Assembly (NCBI GenBank): GCA_964483025.1
Contig: CAYZZT010000003.1
Coordinates: 1 to 39,014 of the forward strand
DNA: 39,014 nt
Origin: an uncultured Candidatus Saccharibacteria bacterium
GTDB taxonomy: Bacteria; Patescibacteriota; Minisyncoccia; Phycocordibacterales; CAIZIN01
Direction: 5' to 3'
Both the position numbers and the translations under genes were made by a program. Shown here in pieces: positions 18,326-27,416 of the stretch (the stretch's first letter is position 1; every line of letters starts with the position of its first letter). A model generated the notes under the pieces. The model was not told where the DNA came from, searched no databases, and saw only the letters and a program-made list of their open reading frames with translations.

Positions 18326-19366
18326 TCACCAGTCGAGATCCGGCTCGCATTTGATGTTCCAAAGATCTTCTTTGGGAAAACTCCGGATCATTTCGCCAAG
18401 CCCAGTGTTCATAATACTCTTGGAACACAAAATACCACTTTCGTTCCTTAGTCTTATGACCTCATCGTCTGTGAGTAGAGCAACACCGAGCCATGCCGGA
18501 ATCATTTCGCTTCTTTCTAAGAAGTCATAAATCGGGTCGAGGAAGCCACTAACGTCCTGAATTACGATCTTTTCATACTCCTTATACATTAACCTTCTCA
18601 AATTTTTGAATTTTCGAGCTGGTTCAGAAGAATTAAACGAAACATAGCCGGCTTCAGCAGACTCTTCGCAAAGGGCAACTATGGTCCTGAAAGTTCGGTC
18701 TCGTTGGTTTATTCCAAACCAATCCATTTGCTCGGAGAGTTCAGCACTACAAACCCAGTCAAGTCGCCGAAAATCATTGTAGTCAGCAAAGAGGTAGGCA
18801 ATCTTGTCAGAATTATTAATTACCCAAGCCTCTTGTGACATATTTGGCTTTGCATTGGCTCCAGAGTGACCGTGCATTGCTTCAAGGGTTTGATATGTGC
18901 AGTTCATGCCCATGCCAAGCCTCTCAATATGCTGGGCAATAACCACACCCATTGTTTCGTGAGTAAAATTTGCACCAACTCTTTGTTGAATATAATGCTC
19001 TCCCTGGTGACCAAAAGGAACGTGTCCAGTATCATGACCTGTTGAACCTGAAAGCCCGAGTCCAACATTCAGGCCTAAATGGTCTGTGATTTGGGTGGTA
19101 ATTCCTGACACCTCATTGGTGTGGGTTGCCCTATCTCTAACATGTGGACGGTTCGGGCCAGATGCAACTTGATTTTTGTGACCCATCCTTCTGTGTGCTT
19201 TGGAGGCTACAATGTCAGAATAGTCTCTAAGAAACGGATCACCTACAGCTTGAAAATCTAATTCTCGTTTATATCTCCTTCGGTATTCTGTGGTTTTCAA
19301 TTCACAGAGTGCCCCTTTTGTTGCTATGTAGCGAGCAAGCAGGTCTTTGTCTGATATATCTCTCAT
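18326..19366 (-). CDS. dGTPase-like HD-domain dNTP triphosphohydrolase
   Basis: RD...I..SKAHRRMGHKNQV, RATHTNEV, GHDTGHVPFGHQGE, SDKIAY; terminator hairpin ~18288-18311. Confidence 0.88.
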   Translation of the reverse strand: MRDISDKDLLARYIATKGALCELKTTEYRRRYKRELDFQAVGDPFLRDYSDIVASKAHRRMGHKNQVASGPNRPHVRDRATHTNEVSGITTQITDHLGLNVGLGLSGSTGHDTGHVPFGHQGEHYIQQRVGANFTHETMGVVIAQHIERLGMGMNCTYQTLEAMHGHSGANAKPNMSQEAWVINNSDKIAYLFADYNDFRRLDWVCSAELSEQMDWFGINQRDRTFRTIVALCEESAEAGYVSFNSSEPARKFKNLRRLMYKEYEKIVIQDVSGFLDPIYDFLERSEMIPAWLGVALLTDDEVIRLRNESGILCSKSIMNTGLGEMIRSFPKEDLWNIKCEPDLDW

Positions 19367-19484
19367 TTTGTACTCCTTTTTTGTTGTTGTTGAACTGTTT
19401 ACTAAACATCATACAATCATATTGAGATAAAAAGTCAAATAATTTTGGTATTAACAAAATTTTTAAATATGGTAACATTGGAGT

Positions 19485-19559
19485 GGGCAAGTAACAACAG
19501 GCGGCGATGTACATCTTGGCAACTTGATGGACACAGGTTCGATCCCTGAAACTGGACCG
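19485..19559 (+). pseudogene. degenerate tRNA / tRNA-like domain (possibly Cys-derived)
   Basis: CAGG-TTCGATC-CCTG T arm, CATC/GATG anticodon stem with an enlarged loop containing GCA, 3-bp D stem with GG, acceptor GGGCAAG/CTGGACC pairing 5 of 7. Confidence 0.6.
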
Positions 19560-19578
19560 ATATAAGTTTTTTTGTACT

Positions 19579-19646
19579 CAGAATAAGTGGGAGACTTGGA
19601 AGTACTTTTTCCGGAGAGTGTGGAGTCACCAGTGAGATACCACCTG
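19579..19646 (+). ncRNA. isolated 23S rRNA L1-stalk-like (H76-H78) RNA domain
   Basis: AGAATAAGTGGGAGACTTGGAAG..hairpin..TGGAGTCACCAGTGAGATACCAC aligns with the recalled 23S pattern AGGATAGGTGGGAGGCTTTGAAG..TGGAGCCGACCTTGAAATACCAC with pairings preserved. Confidence 0.75.
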
Positions 19647-19674
19647 CTTATAAACAAATTGAGGTTTGTTGCCT

Positions 19675-19710
19675 AAGGGCTACCATTTTCGCGGTAGCCC
19701 TTCCTTTGTT
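19675..19710 (+). terminator. intrinsic terminator after the tRNA-like/L1-stalk RNA
   Basis: 10-bp stem AAGGGCTACC/GGTAGCCCTT followed by CCTTTGTT. Confidence 0.65.
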
Positions 19711-19780
19711 GCGTATATTTATATAATGTGGTATAAATTTTGTGGATTAAGAATAGAAACAACCAGCCCAAAAAACACAT

Positions 19781-20170
19781 ATGAAGACGTTTATGAAAAG
19801 GATTCTGAATACCGTTGTCACTGCCCCCATTTTTCTCTTTATTATATATTTTATTGGGGAAACAATCCTCTCAAATATTTTCTGGTTTTTGGAATTTGAA
19901 AGACCAAGTTTTCAGAACCTCAATGCTGTCGGTGCTCTATCTCTTGGAGTGACTTTCTTCGTTTTACTCGTTCTCGGAATAATCTTCTGTGGATTTTGTA
20001 TCCTAGAGATTTTAATTACTGGGAATGGTCTTCTTTGGAAGAGGATTGAGGAAGAAGATTTTGAGCATCCAATAAATAGAAAAATTTTCAACGTCCGTAA
20101 TACGAACAAATTTATTTGGAGACTCGACCCTGTTTTCAAGGGTCGAAGACCGATATATCCTTTCGTTTAG
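19781..20170 (+). CDS. hypothetical membrane protein (2 TM)
   Basis: 129-aa ORF; terminator CCCCCGCTTG-AGTA-CAAGCGGGGG at 20178-20201. Confidence 0.65.
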   Translation: MKTFMKRILNTVVTAPIFLFIIYFIGETILSNIFWFLEFERPSFQNLNAVGALSLGVTFFVLLVLGIIFCGFCILEILITGNGLLWKRIEEEDFEHPINRKIFNVRNTNKFIWRLDPVFKGRRPIYPFV

Positions 20171-20211
20171 TATTTTTCCCCCGCTTGAGTACAAGCGGGG
20201 GATTTTATTTT

Positions 20212-20431
20212 GCGGTGTTTGTTGGACAAAGTTCGAAACTATTTCGAGCAAAATCCAAATGATTAAAACTAATAAAATGGACTCGGCAGGGCGAAACAAT
20301 TTGTCTGGGGTTTCGGATTCGCCCTGCCTCGACTGATTTCCCGCCCGCAGGAGGGGTCTGGGGAGGAATGCGGGCGGGATTCGGACTGGGCGTTTTCGGA
20401 AAAAATTTTTGTGCCAGTGAAACTGGCGCGC
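20212..20431. repeat. 220-bp inverted repeat A (partner 22390-22609)
   Basis: Reverse-complement identity by eye across the whole length. Confidence 0.95.
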
Positions 20432-20434
20432 CAC

Positions 20435-22063
20435 CTAAGATTTCTTCTCTACTATTCTATCAGTAACATCTTTTTCTGGATAATACGGATATATTTTTTC
20501 TAAAATCAATCTTTCAATTTTTTTCAATTCTTGCTCTGATTTTGGTTTTTCTAATTCCGTATTAACTTCGTGGGCTAACTCATCGTATTCCGATTCTGGA
20601 ATATTGTTTTGTTTAAATCCACAATTTTTCATCAAATCCAAAATCAGATTTCCTTTTAGGGTTTTATTTTCATTTGCTCTTAGAATGCCATTGAAAAATT
20701 TATTAACCATTTCTCTGTCTTCAACAACAATTTTGTCTGATTTTCCTGCAACAAAATCGTCAATCGATTCTTTTATTTTTTTAACAATACGCCCATTGCC
20801 CTGCAATCCAGTCCTTTCTGAAACTCGTATGAGTGAAGTTATTGTATAGTCGTAATTCTTAGCTACTTGTCCGCGCAACTCCTCAACATTTTTTCCAAAT
20901 CGTATATCTTCGCCTCCCGCTATTCTGGGCATACCATTAACCATTGCCCAAGCTTTTGCCGTTACGGCCATATTTGCGCCCGCTTGCAATGCCCCTTCTT
21001 TTTGAAACTTGAAATTTGGTTCACCAGAATAATCTTCTTTGGGGCCATCTTTGCCCATGTAAATATCAAAAGCTTTTTTCATCAACTCCTGATTGGGCAA
21101 TGAGGGATCAATTTCAAACTCTAAATTACCAGAAACCCCGTTGATTTTATGTTGTTCAAATGATTGAATTAACGACTTTATAAAATTGCGGGAAAATGTG
21201 CAGTCGCAATCAGTAATTGCTATCGCACCCTCAGTATTACCAGAAGATGTCATAAATCTATCAACAATTTCCGCGCCAGCTCTATCTCTTGCGACACCAA
21301 CATTATTTTCCTCCTCTGAAGTATTGGGTGAAGATTTATCAATTACATTTATTTTAATTTGTGATTTTTTTATTTTTTCTATTTGTTCAATCTGTTCTTC
21401 CGTTAAATTCTTTGGCGCATCTTCAGATTCACCATTTATAAATTTTATTAAATTTATTGCCTCTTGATTTGCCAAAAAAGCAGTGGACTTTTGATCTGCG
21501 TCCGTTCTGCGGTTATTAACAACTAAATCAATCTCAAATAAACTGGAATCTACTTCTTCTTGCTCAGCCAATGAAGACAAAGAACTCAATATATCTGAAG
21601 CACTTTCGTTATAGGCAGGAATCATAACCGCAACCTTGCAATCTCGGTTCATTGGCCGCGAAATGAACGATTCTGGTTTTTCACTCACCAAAGTTCGATT
21701 AAGATATTCTAAAATATTTTTCTCTGCCATAAGGCGATCATAATTTTCGTTTTCTTTTTGCGCTCGTTCTATTGTCGAATCCACCATATTTTGATGAATT
21801 TTTGTTTTTGATTCTTCAGATAACGGTTGACCCAAACCAGATTCAAGCTTGCTTAATTCAGTTTGATATTCTTCTTCTCTTGCTTTTTGGATTTCCACTA
21901 TTTCTCCCTCAGATTTTGGTGAATAATTAAAACTACCTAATTGTTGGTCAATTAAATTTATCCGCTCTACTCTTTGCTGTTCGGGTGTTATCTTTTTTTC
22001 ACCTTCAGCAACAGTATGCTCCATTTCGGTTTTTGGTTGATTTTGTTCTTCCGTATTATTCAT
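20435..22063 (-). CDS. family 2 glycosyltransferase with a ~140-aa E/K/Q-rich N-terminal extension
   Basis: VMIPAYNE, GVARD, ITDCDC (DxD), GANMAV, GGED, SER. Confidence 0.85.
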   Translation of the reverse strand: MNNTEEQNQPKTEMEHTVAEGEKKITPEQQRVERINLIDQQLGSFNYSPKSEGEIVEIQKAREEEYQTELSKLESGLGQPLSEESKTKIHQNMVDSTIERAQKENENYDRLMAEKNILEYLNRTLVSEKPESFISRPMNRDCKVAVMIPAYNESASDILSSLSSLAEQEEVDSSLFEIDLVVNNRRTDADQKSTAFLANQEAINLIKFINGESEDAPKNLTEEQIEQIEKIKKSQIKINVIDKSSPNTSEEENNVGVARDRAGAEIVDRFMTSSGNTEGAIAITDCDCTFSRNFIKSLIQSFEQHKINGVSGNLEFEIDPSLPNQELMKKAFDIYMGKDGPKEDYSGEPNFKFQKEGALQAGANMAVTAKAWAMVNGMPRIAGGEDIRFGKNVEELRGQVAKNYDYTITSLIRVSERTGLQGNGRIVKKIKESIDDFVAGKSDKIVVEDREMVNKFFNGILRANENKTLKGNLILDLMKNCGFKQNNIPESEYDELAHEVNTELEKPKSEQELKKIERLILEKIYPYYPEKDVTDRIVEKKS

Positions 22064-22069
22064 AGTTTA

Positions 22070-22276
22070 TCATTTTAATAAATCATCAACTGAAACATCT
22101 AACGCTTTGGCTATTTTCTGTAAAGTATCGATTGTGGGATTAGTAATTCCACTTGTTTCAATTTTGATAATTGAATTATAAGAAACATCGGCTAATTTTG
22201 AGAGCCGATCTTGAGACAAGCCTTTGGCTTGTCTCAGTTTCTTTATGTTCTTGCTGATTTTATTCTCTTGTGCCAT
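22070..22276 (-). CDS. XRE-family HTH transcriptional regulator
   Basis: IKKLRQAKGLSQDRLSKLADVS...IE...NPTIDTLQKIAKALDV. Confidence 0.95.
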   Translation of the reverse strand: MAQENKISKNIKKLRQAKGLSQDRLSKLADVSYNSIIKIETSGITNPTIDTLQKIAKALDVSVDDLLK

Positions 22277-22389
22277 ACTTGTATTATAATACTATTATTG
22301 ATAGAATAAAGTTATGCGAACTTATATTGAAATCATATTATTAGAATACATCTTTTCTTTAATTTTAACAAGGAAATTTTGTTTATTGT

Positions 22390-22725
22390 GCGCGCCAGTT
22401 TCACTGGCACAAAAATTTTTTCCGAAAACGCCCAGTCCGAATCCCGCCCGCATTCCTCCCCAGACCCCTCCTGCGGGCGGGAAATCAGTCGAGGCAGGGC
22501 GAATCCGAAACCCCAGACAAATTGTTTCGCCCTGCCGAGTCCATTTTATTAGTTTTAATCATTTGGATTTTGCTCGAAATAGTTTCGAACTTTGTCCAAC
22601 AAACACCGCCAAAATTGAAAATCGGAATCGGAAGCAAAAATGCGGTCGGCGCGAAGCGCCGTCTGTTCTGAATTCCCCCCAAAAAATCCTGATTCTGAAA
22701 GGGTTCGCCACGCTCCGCGTGGCTC
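22390..22725 (-). repeat. 336-bp internal inverted copy of the reconstructed attP (A arm 22390-22609 plus B arm 22606-22725)
   Basis: Equals the reverse complement of 24127-24246 joined to 20216-20431. Confidence 0.9.
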
Positions 22726-22746
22726 CTCGTTTGCCAATACAATTCT

Positions 22747-24396
22747 ATGAATAATCAAACCAAAAAGTTTTTCATTTATACTCGCAAGTCTACGGACGAC
22801 AAAGACAGACAAGTCCGCAGTATTTCTGACCAATTAGCGGAATTGAAAAGTTTAGCGTTGAAAGAACAAATTGATGTTGTTGATGTCTTTGTCGAAAAGC
22901 AGACCGCCAAAATACCAGGTCGCCCTGTGTTTAACGAAATGATGTTGAGAATGGAAGCGGGCGAAGCGTCTGGTATTTTGGCGTGGCATCCCGATAGACT
23001 TGCGAGAAATAGTGTTGATGGTGGAAAAATTATTTATCTCGTTGATACTGGCGTAATCGTAGAAATGAAATTTCCAACTTTTTGGTTTGATCCGACACCG
23101 CAAGGAAAATTCATGCTTTCAATCGCTTTTTCGCAATCCAAGTATTATGTGGACAATTTGAGTGAAAATATAAAGCGAGGTCATCGCAACAAAGTGAAAG
23201 ACGGAATATGGCCTCAAATGGCTCCGCTTGGATATGTAAACAAAAATAGAAAGATTATCCCCGATGAAAATATCGCACCATTAATCAAGAAAACATTTGA
23301 GGCATATTCAACTGGGTCTTTCACTTTGCGACAACTCCGCGACAAATTTAATGAACTTGGATTGAAACGAAAAAGCGGAAAGGAACTTGCGGTGTCGAAT
23401 TATCAAAAACTTTTGAAAAATCCGATTTACACTGGTTTGATGTTGTATAACGGCGAAATACACGAAGGTATACACGAACCGATTATCACAAAGAAACTTT
23501 TTGATTCCGTTCAAGAAGTGATGATGAGAAAATCTAAACCTCACTCCAAAGGTCTAAAACCATTTTTGTATAGAGGATTTTTCCGTTGCGGAGAATGTGG
23601 CTGTTTCATTACCACCGAAACACAAAAAGGTCATAACTATTTGCGATGTACAAAACGGAAAAATCCTTGCTCACAAAAATATACTCGTGAGGAAATCATC
23701 ACTTCCGAAATTCGAAAGGAAATCAAAAAAGTTTCTTTGCCAGACGATTGGGCTAAATGGATGTTAGCGGAAAACGAAAAAGATAAACTGGTAGAAGTCC
23801 AATCGTCTACGCTTTTTGCGGATAACACAAAGGCCGATATTTCTCTTTTGGATTCCAAAATTGAGAAGCTGATTAACGCATATTTGGAAGACGCTTTGTC
23901 GCTTGAAGAATATCGAGATATGAAAAACAAACTTGTGAACGAAAAACAGCTTCTCAAAGAGAAATTATCGGCTTTTGAGCAAAAAGCGAATAATCGGTTC
24001 GAACTTACTGAAAAGTTTTTGAAATACAATATGGAATTGGCAAACGAGGGAATAAATGAAGAGAAACTTCATTTATTCAAAAAAGTCGGTTCGAACTTTT
24101 TAATTGAAGCTCGAACCGTACTTTTTGAGCCACGCGGAGCGTGGCGAACCCTTTCAGAATCAGGATTTTTTGGGGGGAATTCAGAACAGACGGCGCTTCG
24201 CGCCGACCGCATTTTTGCTTCCGATTCCGATTTTCAATTTTGGCGGAGGGGACGAGATTCGAACTCGTGGTACTCTTTCGAGCACGCCACCTTTCCAAGG
24301 TGGTACATTCAACCGCTCTGCCACCCCTCCGTTTTTTTAGCATGGATTGCCGATCAAGTCGGCAATGACAAACTTGTGGATATTCTTAATTCATAA
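22747..24396 (+). CDS. large serine recombinase (resolvase, recombinase, Zn-ribbon, coiled coil)
   Basis: YTRKST catalytic Ser, GRPVF, DRLARN, APLGY, NPIYTG, HEPII, CGECG..C..C; the frame runs antisense through tRNA-Ser. Confidence 0.95.
   Translation: MNNQTKKFFIYTRKSTDDKDRQVRSISDQLAELKSLALKEQIDVVDVFVEKQTAKIPGRPVFNEMMLRMEAGEASGILAWHPDRLARNSVDGGKIIYLVDTGVIVEMKFPTFWFDPTPQGKFMLSIAFSQSKYYVDNLSENIKRGHRNKVKDGIWPQMAPLGYVNKNRKIIPDENIAPLIKKTFEAYSTGSFTLRQLRDKFNELGLKRKSGKELAVSNYQKLLKNPIYTGLMLYNGEIHEGIHEPIITKKLFDSVQEVMMRKSKPHSKGLKPFLYRGFFRCGECGCFITTETQKGHNYLRCTKRKNPCSQKYTREEIITSEIRKEIKKVSLPDDWAKWMLAENEKDKLVEVQSSTLFADNTKADISLLDSKIEKLINAYLEDALSLEEYRDMKNKLVNEKQLLKEKLSAFEQKANNRFELTEKFLKYNMELANEGINEEKLHLFKKVGSNFLIEARTVLFEPRGAWRTLSESGFFGGNSEQTALRADRIFASDSDFQFWRRGRDSNSWYSFEHATFPRWYIQPLCHPSVFLAWIADQVGNDKLVDILNS
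24127..24246. repeat. 120-bp inverted repeat B (partner 22606-22725)
   Basis: Reverse-complement identity; lies inside the recombinase CDS. Confidence 0.95.
24241..24330 (-). tRNA. tRNA-Ser(GGA)
   Basis: GGAGGGG/CCCCTCC acceptor, CCACC-TTGGAAA-GGTGG, long variable arm, TTCGAAT, G73, CCA. Confidence 0.96.
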
Positions 24397-24436
24397 TTCT
24401 TAATTCTTAATTCCATCCATGCTATAATATACGTAC

Positions 24437-24934
24437 TTGAAACCAATATCAACTCAAAAAATTCTTTTAGCATTTATTAAAGGAACTGTCATTATAGTTG
24501 TCGTCTTGTGTATTGTGTGGCTTTGGTTTTTTGCAAAAACATATTTGTCATATTCTTCATATCAAAAAGAAAAAATTCTCATTAAAAACGCTATTTTTGT
24601 GGGGTATGTAGTAGATACTCCAGAAAAAAGAACTGAAGGGCTCAGTAATAAAGCTTTTTTACCCTCAAATACGTCTATGCTTTTTGAATTTGATAAGCCA
24701 GAAATACAGGGAATATGGATGAAAGATATGCTTTTCCCAATTGATATTATTTGGCTTGATGAAAACAAAAAAATAGTAAATTTAGTTTCTAATGCAGAAC
24801 CAGAATCTTATCCCCATGTTTTTTATTCTCCCAAAAAATCTTTATATATTTTAGAGGTCAGATCTGGACTTATTAAAGATAAAAATTTGAGACTTGGTGA
24901 TGAAATTTTGTTAGATCAAGAGGAATTGAAGTAA
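24437..24934 (+). CDS. DUF192 domain protein
   Basis: N-terminal TM, DTPEKRTEGLS, MLFEF, IWMKDMLFPIDIIWLD, YILEV. Confidence 0.9.
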   Translation: MKPISTQKILLAFIKGTVIIVVVLCIVWLWFFAKTYLSYSSYQKEKILIKNAIFVGYVVDTPEKRTEGLSNKAFLPSNTSMLFEFDKPEIQGIWMKDMLFPIDIIWLDENKKIVNLVSNAEPESYPHVFYSPKKSLYILEVRSGLIKDKNLRLGDEILLDQEELK

Positions 24935-25109
24935 AATTTTATTATTAGGGTGAGATATATAGGTTTTTTAAACGCTCTTTTGGCGAAGTGCTTTACAGTC
25001 GCCTTTGAATGTATTTTGACTAGTTATCCACTTTTAATATTTTGCTAATTAGGAGTACAATGGGTAGACAAAATATTTATTAATTTTATCAGTAGCTAAT
25101 TACATAAGC

Positions 25110-27416
25110 ATGGCAGAAAAGAAAAAAAAGAAGATTGAAAAATCACCAGTTGACATTACTCACATTCAAAAAAGAAGTGGAGCGGTTGTTCCATTTGAAT
25201 TTGATAAAATAGTAAATGCAATTAATAAGGCAATGATTGCATCTGCCGAGGGCTCACCAAAAGAAGCACAAATGGTGGCAGGAAAGGTGGAGGCGGAGCT
25301 TATACGCACAAAACGAAAACATAAAAATTTTATTCCCACAGTGGAGGGTATTCAAGATGATATAGAAAGAGAGCTTATTTTGAGTGAATATGTAAAAACG
25401 GCTAAAAACTTCATTATTTATAGAGAAGAAAGATCAAAACTTCGCGCAAAGGGCGTTCAAGTTCCTGAAAATGTTAAGCTTCTCGCGGCTGAAAGTAAAA
25501 AAGCTTTTAAAAACTCTTTAGGGGAATTTATTTACTATCGAACATATTCTCGTTGGATAGAAGAAGAGGGGCGTAGGGAGACTTGGACAGAAACAGTCGA
25601 GCGCTATATGAATTTTATGAAAGAAAAGCTTGGTGACAAACTTAAGGAAGTTGAATATAAAGAAGTGCGTGACGCAATTTTCTTCCATGAGGCAATGCCT
25701 TCAATGCGACTTCTACAATTTGCTGGGCCTGCAGCACGTCGTAATCATGCTTGTGCATACAATTGTTCTTTTTCTGCTCCACAATCATTTCAAGATTTTG
25801 CAGAAATAATGTTTCTTTCAATGTCTGGATGCGGAGTTGGTTTTTCTGCAGAAAGTTACAGTGCTCAGTCTTTGCCACAAATTAAACATCAAACAGGTAA
25901 AAAAGTTAAATATGTAATCGAAGATTCTCGTGAAGGATGGGCAGATTCATTTGCTTTTGGAATGAAAAATTTGTTTGAAGGTACTGATGTTGAATTTGAT
26001 TATTCCAAACTTCGTCCAGCAGGTGCTCGCCTAAAGACAACAGGAGGAAAAAGTTCTGGTCCTGATCCACTTCGACAAATTCACGATTTTACAAGAAATA
26101 AAATTTTATCTAAGCAAGGGGGACATCTTACAAACCTGGATGTTCACGATATTGTTTGCCAAATAGGTATGGGGGTAGTTTCTGGTGGAGTACGAAGAAC
26201 AGCTTTGATTTCAATTTCAGATCTTTATGATTCAGATATTCGTGATGCAAAGAAAGGCCAATTTTGGATGAGTGAGCCACAGAGGTCATTGGCAAATAAT
26301 TCTGCTGTATATTTAAACAAACCATCAAATGAAGAGTTTTTGAAGGAGTGGCTCGCTCTTGTGCAAAGCCGTTCTGGAGAGCGAGGTATTTTCAACCGAG
26401 GCGGTTTGAGGAAAACATTTCCAGAGAGCCGAGCTAAACTTTCTGCCGACTGGTGGGATAAATTTGGAACAAATCCTTGTGGAGAAATTATTCTTCGACC
26501 AAAACAATTTTGTAACCTTACAGAAGTGGTGGCGAGAAATGCTGATAAAGAAGCAGACCTTATGCGAAAGATTCGTGTGGCAACTATTATCGGTACATAT
26601 CAAGCATCATTTACAGACTTTGTTTATCTTTCAGAAGATTGGAAAAAGAATTGTGAAGAAGAAGCTTTGCTTGGTGTTTCAATTACGGGTATGTGGGATT
26701 GCCCCGTGGTGCGAAAGCCCGAGGTGCTTAGAAGACTTAGAGAAGAAACAGTAAAAGTAAATAAGGTTTATGCAAAAAGATTTGGTATTAATGCTTCCGC
26801 GGCTATTACAACAGTGAAGCCATCTGGGAATCTTTCACAGACTGTGGATTGTTCAAGTGGTATGCATGCAAGACATTCGCAATATTATATTCGCCGAGTT
26901 CGAATTTCTGCAACAGATGCACTTTTCAAAATGTTGAAAGATCAGGGCGTCCCTTATCATCCTGAGGTGGGTCAGACAGAGGCAGATGCAACAACTTATG
27001 TAATGGACTTTCCAGTTAAGGCACCAAAGAATTCTATTTTTAAAGATGATATGTCTGCGATGGAACAGCTCGAGTTTTGGAAAAATGTAAAAGAAAATTA
27101 TACACATCACAATCCATCTGTAACAATTTCAATAGGGGATGATGAGTGGATTGAAGTTGCAAACTGGCTTTATAAAAATTGGGATTTGATTGGTGGACTT
27201 TCATTCCTACCAAGAGACAACCATGTTTATCAGCTTGCTCCATATGAAGCGATTGATGAGAAGAGATACAATGAACTTTCAAAGAGATATGATCACATTG
27301 ATTTCTCAAAGATTGTTATTTATGAGAAGGTGGACACGACAGATGTTAAGAAAGAATTAGCTTGTGCAAGTGGAGTTTGTTCGATAGATGATATAGTTGT
27401 GGTAGAGAGCAAATAA
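25110..27416 (+). CDS. nrdJ: class II adenosylcobalamin-dependent ribonucleotide reductase with ATP cone
   Basis: KRSG ATP cone, RTYSR, PSMR, YNCSF, GTNPCGEI, FCNLTE, TTVKPSG, C-terminal CASGVC. Confidence 0.93.
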   Translation: MAEKKKKKIEKSPVDITHIQKRSGAVVPFEFDKIVNAINKAMIASAEGSPKEAQMVAGKVEAELIRTKRKHKNFIPTVEGIQDDIERELILSEYVKTAKNFIIYREERSKLRAKGVQVPENVKLLAAESKKAFKNSLGEFIYYRTYSRWIEEEGRRETWTETVERYMNFMKEKLGDKLKEVEYKEVRDAIFFHEAMPSMRLLQFAGPAARRNHACAYNCSFSAPQSFQDFAEIMFLSMSGCGVGFSAESYSAQSLPQIKHQTGKKVKYVIEDSREGWADSFAFGMKNLFEGTDVEFDYSKLRPAGARLKTTGGKSSGPDPLRQIHDFTRNKILSKQGGHLTNLDVHDIVCQIGMGVVSGGVRRTALISISDLYDSDIRDAKKGQFWMSEPQRSLANNSAVYLNKPSNEEFLKEWLALVQSRSGERGIFNRGGLRKTFPESRAKLSADWWDKFGTNPCGEIILRPKQFCNLTEVVARNADKEADLMRKIRVATIIGTYQASFTDFVYLSEDWKKNCEEEALLGVSITGMWDCPVVRKPEVLRRLREETVKVNKVYAKRFGINASAAITTVKPSGNLSQTVDCSSGMHARHSQYYIRRVRISATDALFKMLKDQGVPYHPEVGQTEADATTYVMDFPVKAPKNSIFKDDMSAMEQLEFWKNVKENYTHHNPSVTISIGDDEWIEVANWLYKNWDLIGGLSFLPRDNHVYQLAPYEAIDEKRYNELSKRYDHIDFSKIVIYEKVDTTDVKKELACASGVCSIDDIVVVESK

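What the first reader, a model, noticed from the sequence alone, without database searches (positions are those of the whole stretch)
20212..24246. Serine-recombinase element carrying a full inverted internal copy of its own attP (2-micron-plasmid-like dumbbell)
Seen: 20212-20431 is the reverse complement of 22390-22609, and 24127-24246 is the reverse complement of 22606-22725. The two internal arms overlap by the 4-bp GCGG found at both element ends. Circularising at GCGG gives a 4031-bp circle with two identical 336-bp inverted repeats separating a recombinase loop from a cargo loop (GT2 plus XRE). Established: the yeast 2-micron plasmid uses this geometry with Flp for flipping and amplification, whereas serine-integrase elements normally carry a single attP. 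Inference: this may be a new class of mini integrative element able to flip either half, amplify, fold into an ssDNA dumbbell, or keep a spare attP while integrated.
Basis: partly seen in the sequence, partly recalled or inferred. Interest (0 to 1): 0.88.

Follow-up and report, generated by a model that had tools for sequence, protein, structure and literature searches.

The report
Integrative element with mirrored junction copy
This is a real 4-kb mobile element in a tRNA-Ser gene of a tiny Patescibacteria genome, one of a large undescribed family whose members all keep an internal mirror-image copy of their own joined ends, a layout not reported for bacterial integrating elements.

Summary
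20212-20431 and 24127-24246 are exact reverse complements of 22390-22609 and 22606-22725, sharing a GCGG core. The element sits at the CCA end of tRNA-Ser(GGA). It is not an assembly artefact. Independent k-mer contigs show each unique half ending in the same arm at both ends, arms at about twice flank depth, and the element at about one copy per chromosome. The layout recurs widely: the arm pair around the recombinase is in 130 of 133 testable close relatives. It also occurs in recombinases down to 36% identity that target tRNA-Gln, Asn, Leu, Ile, Ala and Glu. The recombinase is a canonical large serine integrase whose reading frame always crosses the crossover point. Cargo differs in every element (restriction-modification, defence, cell-surface genes). 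Orientation is fixed: 34 normal to 1 flipped for the cargo, and the recombinase always ends at the tRNA. With no excess depth, 2-micron-like flipping or amplification is not supported. My lead reading, an inference at about 0.35, is that the mirror copy works like the internal complementary region of DIRS retrotransposons. It would splint the two ends of a linear single strand, so that a circle with attP forms without excision. Rivals are a second live attP, and an operator or insulator copy.

The parts
20212..20215 (.). Left crossover core GCGG (attL)
   Evidence: The same 4 bp bound the element in 19 related full loci.
20212..20431 (+). P arm, left end of the element. It holds the P-type half-site, with a TTCGAA motif starting 17 nt after the core, then GC-rich hairpins and a weak terminator-like hairpin at its inner end.
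   Evidence: Exact reverse complement of 22390-22609. The motif sits at +17 in 103 of 105 elements. GC is about 50% against 30-38% around it.
20435..22063 (-). Cargo ORF of 542 aa with a weak glycosyltransferase-2-like stretch. Function not established.
   Evidence: Pfam PF00535, E 4e-7, over residues 146-194 only. No NCBIfam or PADLOC hit. No homologue in the cargo of 19 other full elements.
22070..22276 (-). XRE-type HTH regulator, the only conserved cargo gene, divergent from the recombinase
   Evidence: Pfam HTH_3, E 7e-17. A homologue lies next to the mirror copy and divergent in 34 of 41 full elements.
22277..22389 (.). Unique intergenic stretch between XRE and the mirror copy; presumed XRE promoter region (inferred)
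   Evidence: Position only. One promoter-like match at 22270-22298 on the + strand, not above the shuffled expectation.
22390..22725 (+). Internal mirror copy of the joined ends: P' 22390-22609, core 22606-22609, Q' 22606-22725. It equals an inverted full attP.
   Evidence: The arm contig 22390-22542 has depth 26.7 against 13.2 for the unique parts. Conserved position in relatives.
22747..24396 (+). Large serine recombinase ORF: 549 aa as integrated, 516 aa if read across the joined ends. The crossover core is codon 500.
   Evidence: Pfam Resolvase, Recombinase and Zn_ribbon_recom. The A118/LI and SPbeta integrases are the nearest solved structures. The ORF crosses the core in 11 of 11 family members checked.
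24087..24118 (-). Terminator-like hairpin with a T run on the tRNA strand, just inside the Q arm. It would stop read-through from tRNA-Ser (inferred).
24127..24246 (+). Q arm, right end of the element. It encodes recombinase residues 461-500 and supplies the CCA of the tRNA.
   Evidence: Exact reverse complement of 22606-22725. Contig 24165-24246 has depth 30.
24241..24330 (-). Target gene tRNA-Ser(GGA). The last acceptor bases, the discriminator and the first C of CCA form the core.
   Evidence: ARAGORN and Rfam. A TTCGAA T-loop motif sits 12 nt after the core in 103 of 105 elements.

Best explanation
SHOWN. The stretch 20212-24246 is one member of a large family of small (about 3.5-9 kb) integrative elements of Patescibacteria. 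A canonical large serine integrase inserts them at a 4-bp core in the CCA end of a tRNA gene (tRNA-Ser here; other tRNAs in other clades). Every member has the same fixed layout: flank - core - P arm - variable cargo read leftwards - XRE - [P' core' Q'] - recombinase - Q arm - core - tRNA. The bracketed piece is the exact reverse complement of the two element ends joined together. The recombinase reading frame runs across the core, so its last 9-19 residues are encoded by the P arm only when the ends are joined. After integration they are replaced by residues read from the antisense tRNA. INFERRED (lead hypothesis, about 0.35). [quoted passage not shown] In a linear single strand carrying the integrated element, for example DNA taken up by natural competence, P pairs with P' and Q with Q'. 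The two ends then lie side by side on an unbroken template. Flaps or nibbled ends can be trimmed or filled in from that template and the nick sealed. This would give a closed circle that, once double-stranded, carries a restored attP and a restored full-length recombinase gene and can integrate by the ordinary attP x attB reaction. The element would need neither excision nor a directionality factor to spread. Copying the ends from the internal template at each transfer would also keep the arms identical.
For: The element is real.
- The contig covering 20402-22419 carries 30 nt of the same arm at both ends.
- Arm contigs have depth 26.7-30 against 11.6-13.7 for flank and unique parts in run X1, and 28.1 against 10.3-13.2 in X2.
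- A run from another study (X5) bridges both junctions.

The layout is conserved.
- The Q'/Q repeat is present in 59 of 60 and 71 of 73 testable close relatives.
- An abutting P/P' repeat is present in 18 of 31 and 10 of 12. In 4 of 5 misses that I followed up, the partner arm lay 5.6-6.7 kb away, beyond the stored flank.
- 10 of 20 distant loci (36-59% identity) have both repeats, at tRNA-Ser, Gln, Asn, Leu, Ile, Ala and Glu. Five more are cut by contig ends.

The recombinase is a canonical integrase.
- It has all three Pfam domains.
- The TTCGAA motif lies at +17 in the P arm and +12 on the tRNA side in 101 of 105 elements. This is the 5-bp offset that distinguishes attP from attB half-sites (passage read in PMC11722253).

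Features that fit the splint reading.
- The arms end exactly at the core.
- Arms are 99.5-100% identical within an element, against 62% (P) and 82% (Q) between elements. In the 20 elements the first mismatch mostly lies far from the core.
- No conserved gene exists besides the recombinase and XRE, so there is no candidate directionality factor or transfer gene.
- Recombinases 81-96% identical sit in MAGs labelled as many different classes.
- Recombinase genes are mosaics of other family members.
- The ORF crosses the core in 11 of 11.
- The host has ComEC and DprA, and Saccharibacteria are naturally competent (abstract of PMC10187176).
- In DIRS-1 the 88-bp ICR is complementary to both extremities, is essential, and the intermediates are linear single strands (passages of PMC7192593).
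Against: - No single-stranded or circular form was seen. All runs on offer were k=31 contigs, which cannot show rare forms or resolve isomers.
- Any inverted copy of attP has the 'ends side by side' geometry, so geometry alone does not separate a splint from a second recombination site.
- A double-stranded circle made this way has two identical attP copies. Only integration through the copy at the 3' ends is ever seen. This needs an added assumption, namely occlusion of the promoter-side copy or selection against the other form.
- ComEC and DprA are common genes, found in 10 of 14 control genomes.
- Ordinary gene conversion between nearby inverted repeats could also keep the arms identical.
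- DIRS uses reverse transcriptase and a tyrosine recombinase, and neither is present here.
- A few recombinase genes lack the mirror copy: L046, L181 and L198, and L108.
Confidence: 0.35

Rival explanations
1. The mirror copy is a second, live attP used by the recombinase on double-stranded DNA. It could recombine with attR, which keeps the tRNA half-site, to flip the recombinase module. That would switch the recombinase between its two C-terminal tails and place it behind the tRNA promoter. Alternatively, a recombinase dimer bound there could unlock attL and attR, acting as a DNA-encoded substitute for a directionality factor.
For: The internal copy keeps both half-sites and the core intact in 105 elements. 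Arms can be as short as 39-47 nt in distant clades, about the size of att half-sites. The left half of attB is not conserved between hosts, so the tRNA half carries the specificity. Tandem arrays show that a site already occupied can be used again: L028 and L132, L139, L166, L187, L188, L194, L198. Recombinase-only modules lie between two convergent tRNA-Ser genes in L019 and L036, with a tRNA also upstream in L052 and L167. This is what an internal attP recombining with a second tRNA would leave. SPbeta integrase forms attP-attP tetramers (passage in PMC11722253).
Against: A flipped recombinase module was never seen, and cargo is flipped once in 41. Canonical serine integrases do not react attP with attR or attL (passage in PMC11722253). 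The two arms of the recombinase-only modules are of different subtypes (81-89% alike). That fits homologous recombination between mosaic elements as well as it fits site-specific inversion. A live attP among several tRNA-Ser genes would be costly to the host.
Confidence: 0.25
2. The mirror copy is a regulatory and insulating module: an operator where the recombinase (and XRE) control the divergent promoters, with terminators on each side of both transcription units. It would be a duplicate of attP kept alike by ordinary gene conversion, with no part in DNA movement.
For: It lies exactly between the divergent XRE and recombinase genes in 34 of 41 elements. The arms carry terminator-like hairpins in the right directions. 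The distal arm parts are interchangeable GC-rich hairpin modules without sequence conservation. The res site of Tn3 doubles as operator (recalled, not checked here).
Against: An operator needs about 50 bp, not a copy of both ends exact to the base. The architecture persists while the arm sequences change completely, across clades down to 36% recombinase identity and seven tRNA targets. That points to selection on the mirror relation itself rather than on a particular regulatory sequence.
Confidence: 0.15
3. A 2-micron-like element: a free circle whose two inverted repeats are recombined to flip the halves and amplify copy number.
For: The geometry of the joined form is the same, two identical inverted repeats separating two unique parts. 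One element has its cargo flipped (L018).
Against: Orientation is fixed at 34 to 1. Unique parts have the depth of the chromosome flank: 13.2-13.7 against 11.6 in X1, and 10.6 against 10.3-13.2 in X2. There is no conserved replication gene. The recombinase is a serine integrase, not a tyrosine enzyme like Flp. attP x attP is not a normal integrase reaction.
Confidence: 0.04
4. An assembly fold-back artefact.
For: The genome is a fragmented MAG of 88 contigs. Small hairpins sit at the inner arm boundaries.
Against: The contig graph of separate runs reproduces the junctions and the doubled arm depth. The same layout appears in over 130 loci from assemblies whose contig names follow several different naming styles, and in records titled as whole chromosomes (L037, L075, and single-contig genomes L107, L109, L112, L113).
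Confidence: 0.01

Closest known systems
Large serine integrases of phages and integrative elements (A118/LI, TP901-1, SPbeta SprA, XisF, CcrB)
   Same: Same three-domain enzyme. These are the nearest structures and family models. Short crossover core, and a P-type versus B-type half-site offset of 5 bp (passage in PMC11722253).
   Different: At most 28.5% identical to any phage or plasmid record. The known elements carry one attP. Here a second, inverted, full copy is a constant feature, the reading frame crosses the core, and no directionality factor candidate is conserved.
DIRS-1 retrotransposons: internal complementary region (ICR)
   Same: An internal stretch exactly complementary to both extremities, placed adjacent to each other, so that a linear single strand can be closed into a circle whose junction equals the ICR. 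The circle is then integrated by a site-specific recombinase (passages of PMC7192593).
   Different: DIRS is eukaryotic, moves through RNA and reverse transcriptase, uses a tyrosine recombinase and has inverted LTRs. The elements here encode no reverse transcriptase and use a serine integrase. A single-stranded stage is only inferred.
Yeast 2-micron plasmid (Flp/FRT in 599-bp inverted repeats; recalled)
   Same: The joined form would be a circle with two identical inverted repeats that contain the recombination site.
   Different: Tested features are not met: no isomer mixture, no excess copy number, no replication functions, and a different recombinase class.
SSV1-type archaeal integrases with attP inside the integrase gene (recalled; only the search listing of PMC8371274 was seen)
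   Same: The crossover point lies inside the recombinase reading frame, so integration changes the gene.
   Different: There a tyrosine integrase gene is split in two. Here only the last 9-19 residues are exchanged and the enzyme is a serine integrase.
tRNA-targeting genomic islands, and the integrase-driven chromosome inversions of Thermococcales (PMC5495485, abstract seen in the listing)
   Same: Insertion at the 3' end of tRNA genes with restoration of the tRNA end. There are signs that the recombinase also rearranges chromosomes between tRNA genes, namely the recombinase-only modules between two tRNA-Ser genes.
   Different: Those systems use tyrosine integrases and carry tens of bases of tRNA sequence. 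Here the shared core is 4-10 bp at the CCA end.
Serine invertase switches (Gin/G segment of Mu, Hin; recalled)
   Same: A recombinase gene next to a segment bounded by inverted crossover sites.
   Different: Those use a small recombinase with an enhancer, and both orientations coexist. Here the enzyme is a large integrase, the orientation is fixed and the element is mobile.

Membership tests
Large serine recombinase / integrase | N-terminal resolvase-type catalytic domain with the serine motif | tested here: met
   PF00239 covers residues 9-154, E 3.9e-18. The N-terminus reads ...YTRKS... in the translation.
Large serine recombinase / integrase | Recombinase domain plus zinc-ribbon domain C-terminal to the catalytic domain | tested here: met
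   PF07508 at 177-259 and PF13408 at 274-326. The A118 integrase C-terminal domain aligns to residues 203-403.
Large serine recombinase / integrase | Coiled-coil motif inserted in the zinc-ribbon domain | tested here: inconclusive
   Only the sequence alignment to A118 over 203-403 and a weak DUF3855 match at 362-431. No structure was predicted.
Large serine recombinase / integrase | attP and attB half-sites with the outer motif shifted by about 5 bp | tested here: met
   TTCGAA at +17 (P arm) against +12 (tRNA side) in 101 of 105 elements. The rule is taken from the passage in PMC11722253.
Large serine recombinase / integrase | Unidirectional reaction reversed by a directionality factor | not testable with these tools
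   No conserved gene besides the recombinase and XRE. Activity cannot be computed.
tRNA-targeting integrative element (genomic island) | Insertion at the 3' end of a tRNA gene with the core repeated at both ends, and the site empty in relatives | tested here: met
   tRNA-Ser(GGA) at the right end. GCGG at both ends. Congener G407 has an intact tRNA-Ser(GGA) with no 4-kb element, 587 bp from a weak (25% identity) match to the left-flank gene. That region also holds tRNA-end remnants, so it is not a clean empty site.
2-micron-type inverted-repeat plasmid | Two isomers present in similar amounts through recombination in the repeats | tested here: not met
   34 normal to 1 flipped for cargo among 41 elements. 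The recombinase module was never flipped. This rests on consensus assemblies only, so minority isomers are not excluded.
2-micron-type inverted-repeat plasmid | Autonomous replication and copy-number amplification | tested here: not met
   Unique parts have depth 13.2-13.7 against a flank depth of 11.6 (X1), and 10.6 against 10.3-13.2 (X2). No conserved replication gene.
DIRS-like elements (ICR-bearing) | Internal region complementary to both extremities, adjacent to each other | tested here: met
DIRS-like elements (ICR-bearing) | Reverse transcriptase, RNase H and a tyrosine recombinase | tested here: not met
   None found in the window element or in the cargo of 20 elements. So this is an analogy of mechanism, not membership.
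Serine invertase switch (Gin/Hin type) | Small recombinase of about 190 aa with an enhancer; both orientations in a population | tested here: not met
   A 500+ aa integrase and fixed orientation.

The most novel reading that the evidence does not exclude
These are excision-free integrative elements carried by DNA uptake. The mirrored junction would be a prokaryotic, DNA-only counterpart of the DIRS internal complementary region. It would let any linear single strand holding an integrated copy, with ragged ends, rebuild a circle with a perfect attP and a full-length recombinase gene, using host trimming, fill-in and ligation alone. Integration would then exchange the recombinase's C-terminal tail. 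(Variant: the internal attP acts as a DNA-encoded substitute for a directionality factor.) Either way, this would be a new mode of horizontal transfer that may account for much gene flow, defence systems included, across Patescibacteria.
Probability: 0.3. Interest if true: 0.92.

Novelty: new variant of a known kind. Interest (0 to 1): 0.8.

Why it matters
Patescibacteria make up a large share of bacterial diversity, yet how genes move between them is poorly understood. This family is common. Homologues of the recombinase are in 228 of 401 sampled genomes of the phylum. Close relatives (81-96% identity) appear 257 times in the species-genome collection and 558 times in JGI metagenome contigs. 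The elements carry restriction-modification systems, candidate defence genes and cell-envelope genes as interchangeable cargo.

The constant mirrored junction is a structural rule not described for bacterial integrative elements in the literature I could search. It therefore points to an unknown step in the life cycle of a serine-integrase element. Three lines of work follow:
- An integrase family with defined attP and attB sites at tRNA ends, of interest as a genome-engineering tool.
- A testable model for transfer without excision.
- A likely source of chromosome rearrangements between tRNA genes in these small genomes.

Tried and rejected
- **Rfam.** No family matched the arms at gathering score. 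A permissive search of 22280-22760 gave only a chance-level snoRNA hit.
- **Consensus folding.** Folding 36 diverse P arms gave one 6-pair hairpin with no compensatory change. I drop the idea of one conserved structured RNA in the arms; their distal parts are unrelated GC-rich hairpin modules.
- **Promoter scan.** Not above the shuffled expectation, so no promoter is claimed.
- **Viral contigs.** No relative of the recombinase. Phage and plasmid collections hold only distant integrases, and the best small phage-labelled record (L200) has no mirrored repeat. A phage or plasmid origin is not supported.
- **Read evidence.** All 24 runs offered were Logan contigs. Laying four of them gave no empty-site joint, no circle-specific adjacency and no flipped form. 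Such contigs drop rare variants and cannot span the arms, so this says nothing for or against those forms.
- **Circle-like contigs among metagenome loci.** The few contigs where a P arm follows the recombinase (L132, L139, L166, L198, and L028 among the genome loci) have arms that differ from the upstream copy. I read them as tandem arrays, not circles.
- **The P arm elsewhere in the genome holding L019.** One copy was found at a contig end. That cannot show whether a separate cargo-only module exists.
- **Models I worked through and dropped.** Integration of a folded single-strand stem directly into attB would leave hairpin-capped chromosome ends. Template switching at the tRNA would give an inverted duplication, not a circle. 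A precursor with one attP cannot give the observed junctions.
- **Not available.** Supplementary files of papers were not consulted, and those of PMC7192593 and PMC11722253 may hold site details that bear on the analogies.

Full report
**1. The observation**

One search finds arms 20208-20431 / 22390-22613 and 22606-22725 / 24127-24246. Reading the bases shows exact complementarity from 20212, with the 4-bp core GCGG at both element ends and its complement where the two internal arms overlap. Joined at the core, the element would be a 4031-bp circle with two 336-bp inverted copies. The 336 bp occur nowhere else in the 770-kb, 88-contig genome. The arms are about 50% G+C in a 30-38% background.

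The genes are as follows:
- a large serine recombinase at 22747-24396 on the + strand, with Resolvase, Recombinase and Zn-ribbon domains;
- a 68-aa XRE regulator at 22070-22276 on the - strand;
- a 542-aa ORF at 20435-22063 on the - strand, whose 'GT2' label rests on 49 residues only (NCBIfam and PADLOC give nothing).

The element supplies the CCA.

**2. Artefact or real?**

All runs on offer were Logan contigs. I laid four runs on 19300-25200.
- In X1, which may be the source sample, one contig covers 20402-22419. That is the cargo half plus 30 nt of the same arm at both ends. Its depth is 13.2.
- The left flank contig has depth 11.6 and the recombinase contigs 13.7.
- The arm contigs have depth 26.7 (22390-22542) and 30 (24165-24246).
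- X2, another sample of the same study, gives 28.1 for the arm against 10.3-13.2.
- X5, from another study, has contigs bridging both junctions.

So each arm is present twice per element and the element about once per chromosome. Two caveats apply. Depth is one figure per contig, and identical arms of related elements in the sample could add to it. The graph shape does not depend on depth.

**3. Relatives**

The recombinase (residues 1-500) finds 257 relatives in the species-genome collection and 558 in JGI metagenome contigs. The best 80 of each were held, at 81-97% identity. Nearly all sit in records labelled Patescibacteria of many classes; a few carry other labels.

| Test | Genome loci | Metagenome loci |
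|---|---|---|
| Q'/Q repeat around the recombinase, among loci with enough sequence | 59 of 60 (miss: L046) | 71 of 73 (misses: L181, L198) |
| P/P' repeat abutting it, within the stored flank | 18 of 31 | 10 of 12 |

The P/P' misses have three explanations:
- Some are artefacts of my 15-nt abutment rule (L028, L034, L041, L195 do have the repeat).
- Some are recombinase-only modules (L019, L036).
- In 4 of 5 others that I followed up, the partner arm lies 5.6-6.7 kb away, beyond the flank held.

In 19 full loci the right end is always core followed by the reverse complement of a tRNA 3' end. The left flank is unrelated between hosts, and the internal piece is the exact reverse complement of the joined ends. 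Many contigs break 100-340 bp upstream of the recombinase, inside the repeat.

**4. Depth of the family**

In an even sample of the phylum, 228 of 401 genomes have a homologue at E <= 1e-20. I fetched 20 loci at 29-60% identity.
- Ten have both repeats in the same order: L098, L103, L105, L106, L107, L109-L113. Four of these are from single-contig genomes.
- Five more are cut by contig ends or partly degraded.
- L102 has one repeat that does not fit the pattern.
- Four have none: L108, whose recombinase match begins only at query residue 33, and the three at 32% identity or less.

The targets are the CCA ends of tRNA-Ser, Gln, Asn, Leu, Ile, Ala and Glu. Arms run from 39 to 339 nt and are unrelated in sequence to those of the window. 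The mirror relation is therefore conserved while the sequences are not.

**5. What kind of enzyme and sites**

The nearest solved structures are the A118/LI and SPbeta integrases. The nearest NCBIfam models are XisF and CcrB, both below cut-off. A TTCGAA motif starts 17 nt after the core in the P arm and 12 nt after it on the tRNA side (the T loop) in 101 of 105 elements. This is the 5-bp offset between attP and attB half-sites described for these integrases (passage in PMC11722253). The site logic is therefore canonical: the P arm imitates the tRNA T-arm half a turn further out.

The recombinase frame has no stop before the core in 11 of 11 members checked. Read across the joined ends it stops 9-19 codons into the P arm in 9 of the 11. 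As integrated, it runs on into antisense tRNA for 3-57 codons.

**6. Cargo and orientation**

Among 20 full elements, the only shared cargo gene is the XRE regulator (15 of 20 by clustering). Every other gene is unique or shared by two elements. The cargo includes:
- DpnII and EcoRI-type restriction-modification genes, and C5 and N4/N6 methylases;
- GmrSD and UvrD-like genes, and AAA_13 and OLD-like ATPases;
- Fic, glycosyltransferases, D-Ala-D-Ala ligase, a cytochrome cd1-like protein and an Ltp lipoprotein.

Among 41 full elements from both collections, orientation is almost invariant:

| XRE position | Elements |
|---|---|
| Next to the mirror copy, divergent from the recombinase | 34 |
| Flipped (L018) | 1 |
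| Placed otherwise | 1 |
| No homologue found | 5 |

The recombinase 3' end faces the tRNA in every full element. Together with the depth figures this argues against 2-micron-like flipping or amplification. It also shows that the two identical attP copies are not used alike.

**7. Arms**

Within an element the arms are 99.5% (P) and 100% (Q) identical at the median. Between elements the medians are 61.6% and 81.7% (42 elements, 861 pairs). Only the 55-60 nt next to the core are conserved between subtypes, and the rest is made of different GC-rich hairpin modules. Recombinase genes are mosaics, with the best-matching relative changing every 150 nt in L019 and L036. Family members therefore recombine with each other often.

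**8. By-products**

- Four loci have a tRNA-Ser gene directly upstream of the Q' arm: L019, L036, L052 and L167. In L019 and L036 the recombinase module lies between two convergent tRNA-Ser genes.
- Tandem arrays, where a recombinase is followed by the core and another element's P arm, occur in about ten loci.
- Congener G407 has an intact tRNA-Ser(GGA) without the element but with two tRNA-end remnants nearby. G406 has the left flank joined to a remnant.

**9. How it most likely works**

Shown: site-specific insertion by a serine integrase at tRNA ends, and a constant mirrored junction. The role of the mirror is inferred. I rank first (about 0.35) a role like the DIRS-1 internal complementary region. 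That region is exactly complementary to both extremities, is essential, and is thought to close a linear single strand into a circle that a recombinase then integrates (passages of PMC7192593).

Applied here, a linear single strand with the integrated element would fold P on P' and Q on Q'. The ends would be trimmed or filled in on the internal template and sealed. This would restore attP and the full-length recombinase gene without excision. The reading fits several findings:
- the lack of any conserved excision or transfer gene;
- the small size of the elements and their wide host spread;
- the mosaicism of the recombinase genes and the identity of the arms;
- competence in Saccharibacteria (abstract of PMC10187176);
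- ComEC and DprA in this genome, which is weak support because they are common genes.

By itself it does not explain why only one attP copy is used for integration, and no single-stranded form has been seen.

Rivals:
- a second live attP acting on double-stranded DNA, as an inversion switch or as a stand-in for a directionality factor (0.25);
- an operator or insulator copy kept alike by gene conversion (0.15);
- a 2-micron-like mechanism (0.04);
- an assembly artefact (0.01).

The remainder is unknown.

**10. Novelty**

Three full-text searches for such an element in Patescibacteria or for serine-recombinase elements with this layout found nothing relevant. The library lacks most subscription journals, so this is not proof of absence. 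I file the finding as a new variant of a known kind, a serine-integrase integrative element, with a structural rule that is new for prokaryotes.

Noticed in passing
L019:5780-7584; L036:5778-7582; L052:5775-7437; L167:1531-3135: Recombinase-only modules. A tRNA-Ser gene reads straight into the Q' arm. In L019 and L036 a second, convergent tRNA-Ser gene follows the Q arm. The two arms are of different subtypes (81-89% alike). These may be scars of rearrangements between tRNA genes driven by the internal attP, or of recombination between two elements.
   Followed up: partly
L028:7381-7623; L187:4380-7134; L188:4182-6936; L122:4329-11314; L050:4882-8276; L132, L139, L166, L194, L198: Tandem arrays. 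The recombinase of one element is followed by the core and the P arm of a different element, so an occupied site can be used again. The hybrid junction is itself attP-like and in direct orientation with attR.
   Followed up: partly
L029:7632-10994: A second, more distant element with the same double-repeat layout (arms 154 and 132 nt) sits in tRNA-Ala(GGC), 48 bp from the tRNA-Ser that holds the first element.
   Followed up: partly
L119:1080-1290 (genome G407) and L118:1925-1950 (genome G406): The equivalent site in two congeners holds short remnants of tRNA-Ser 3' ends that start at the GCGG core. G407 has two copies of one remnant plus a partial tRNA-like stretch. These look like traces of earlier insertions or rearrangements at this spot.
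   Followed up: partly
window 21384-22284: In run X5 (another study) one contig of depth 6.5 joins 21384 to 22284 with 28 other letters between, replacing 899 bp of the cargo ORF and XRE. This may be a cargo variant of the same insertion. The support is a single contig with a short side of 21 nt.
   Followed up: no
L019 and L036, recombinase genes: The recombinase genes are mosaics. The closest relative changes in nearly every 150-nt window, which implies frequent homologous exchange among family members.
   Followed up: partly
L076:5645-5863 against the window's 22391-22609 (alignment A1, columns 222-273): One GC-rich hairpin module of the P arm has the same stem but its loop in the opposite orientation in L076. 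The hairpin module itself seems able to invert or to insert either way.
   Followed up: no
G000:C2:28334-29845 (locus L116): The same genome has a second large serine recombinase, 29-32% identical, with no mirrored repeats around it.
   Followed up: partly
L013:7500-7545; L014 upstream of the recombinase; L074:3577-3620; L153, L154 and L193 downstream: A minority of elements are followed after the core not by a tRNA but by a different shared-looking sequence that ARAGORN does not call as a tRNA. This may be an alternative target.
   Followed up: no
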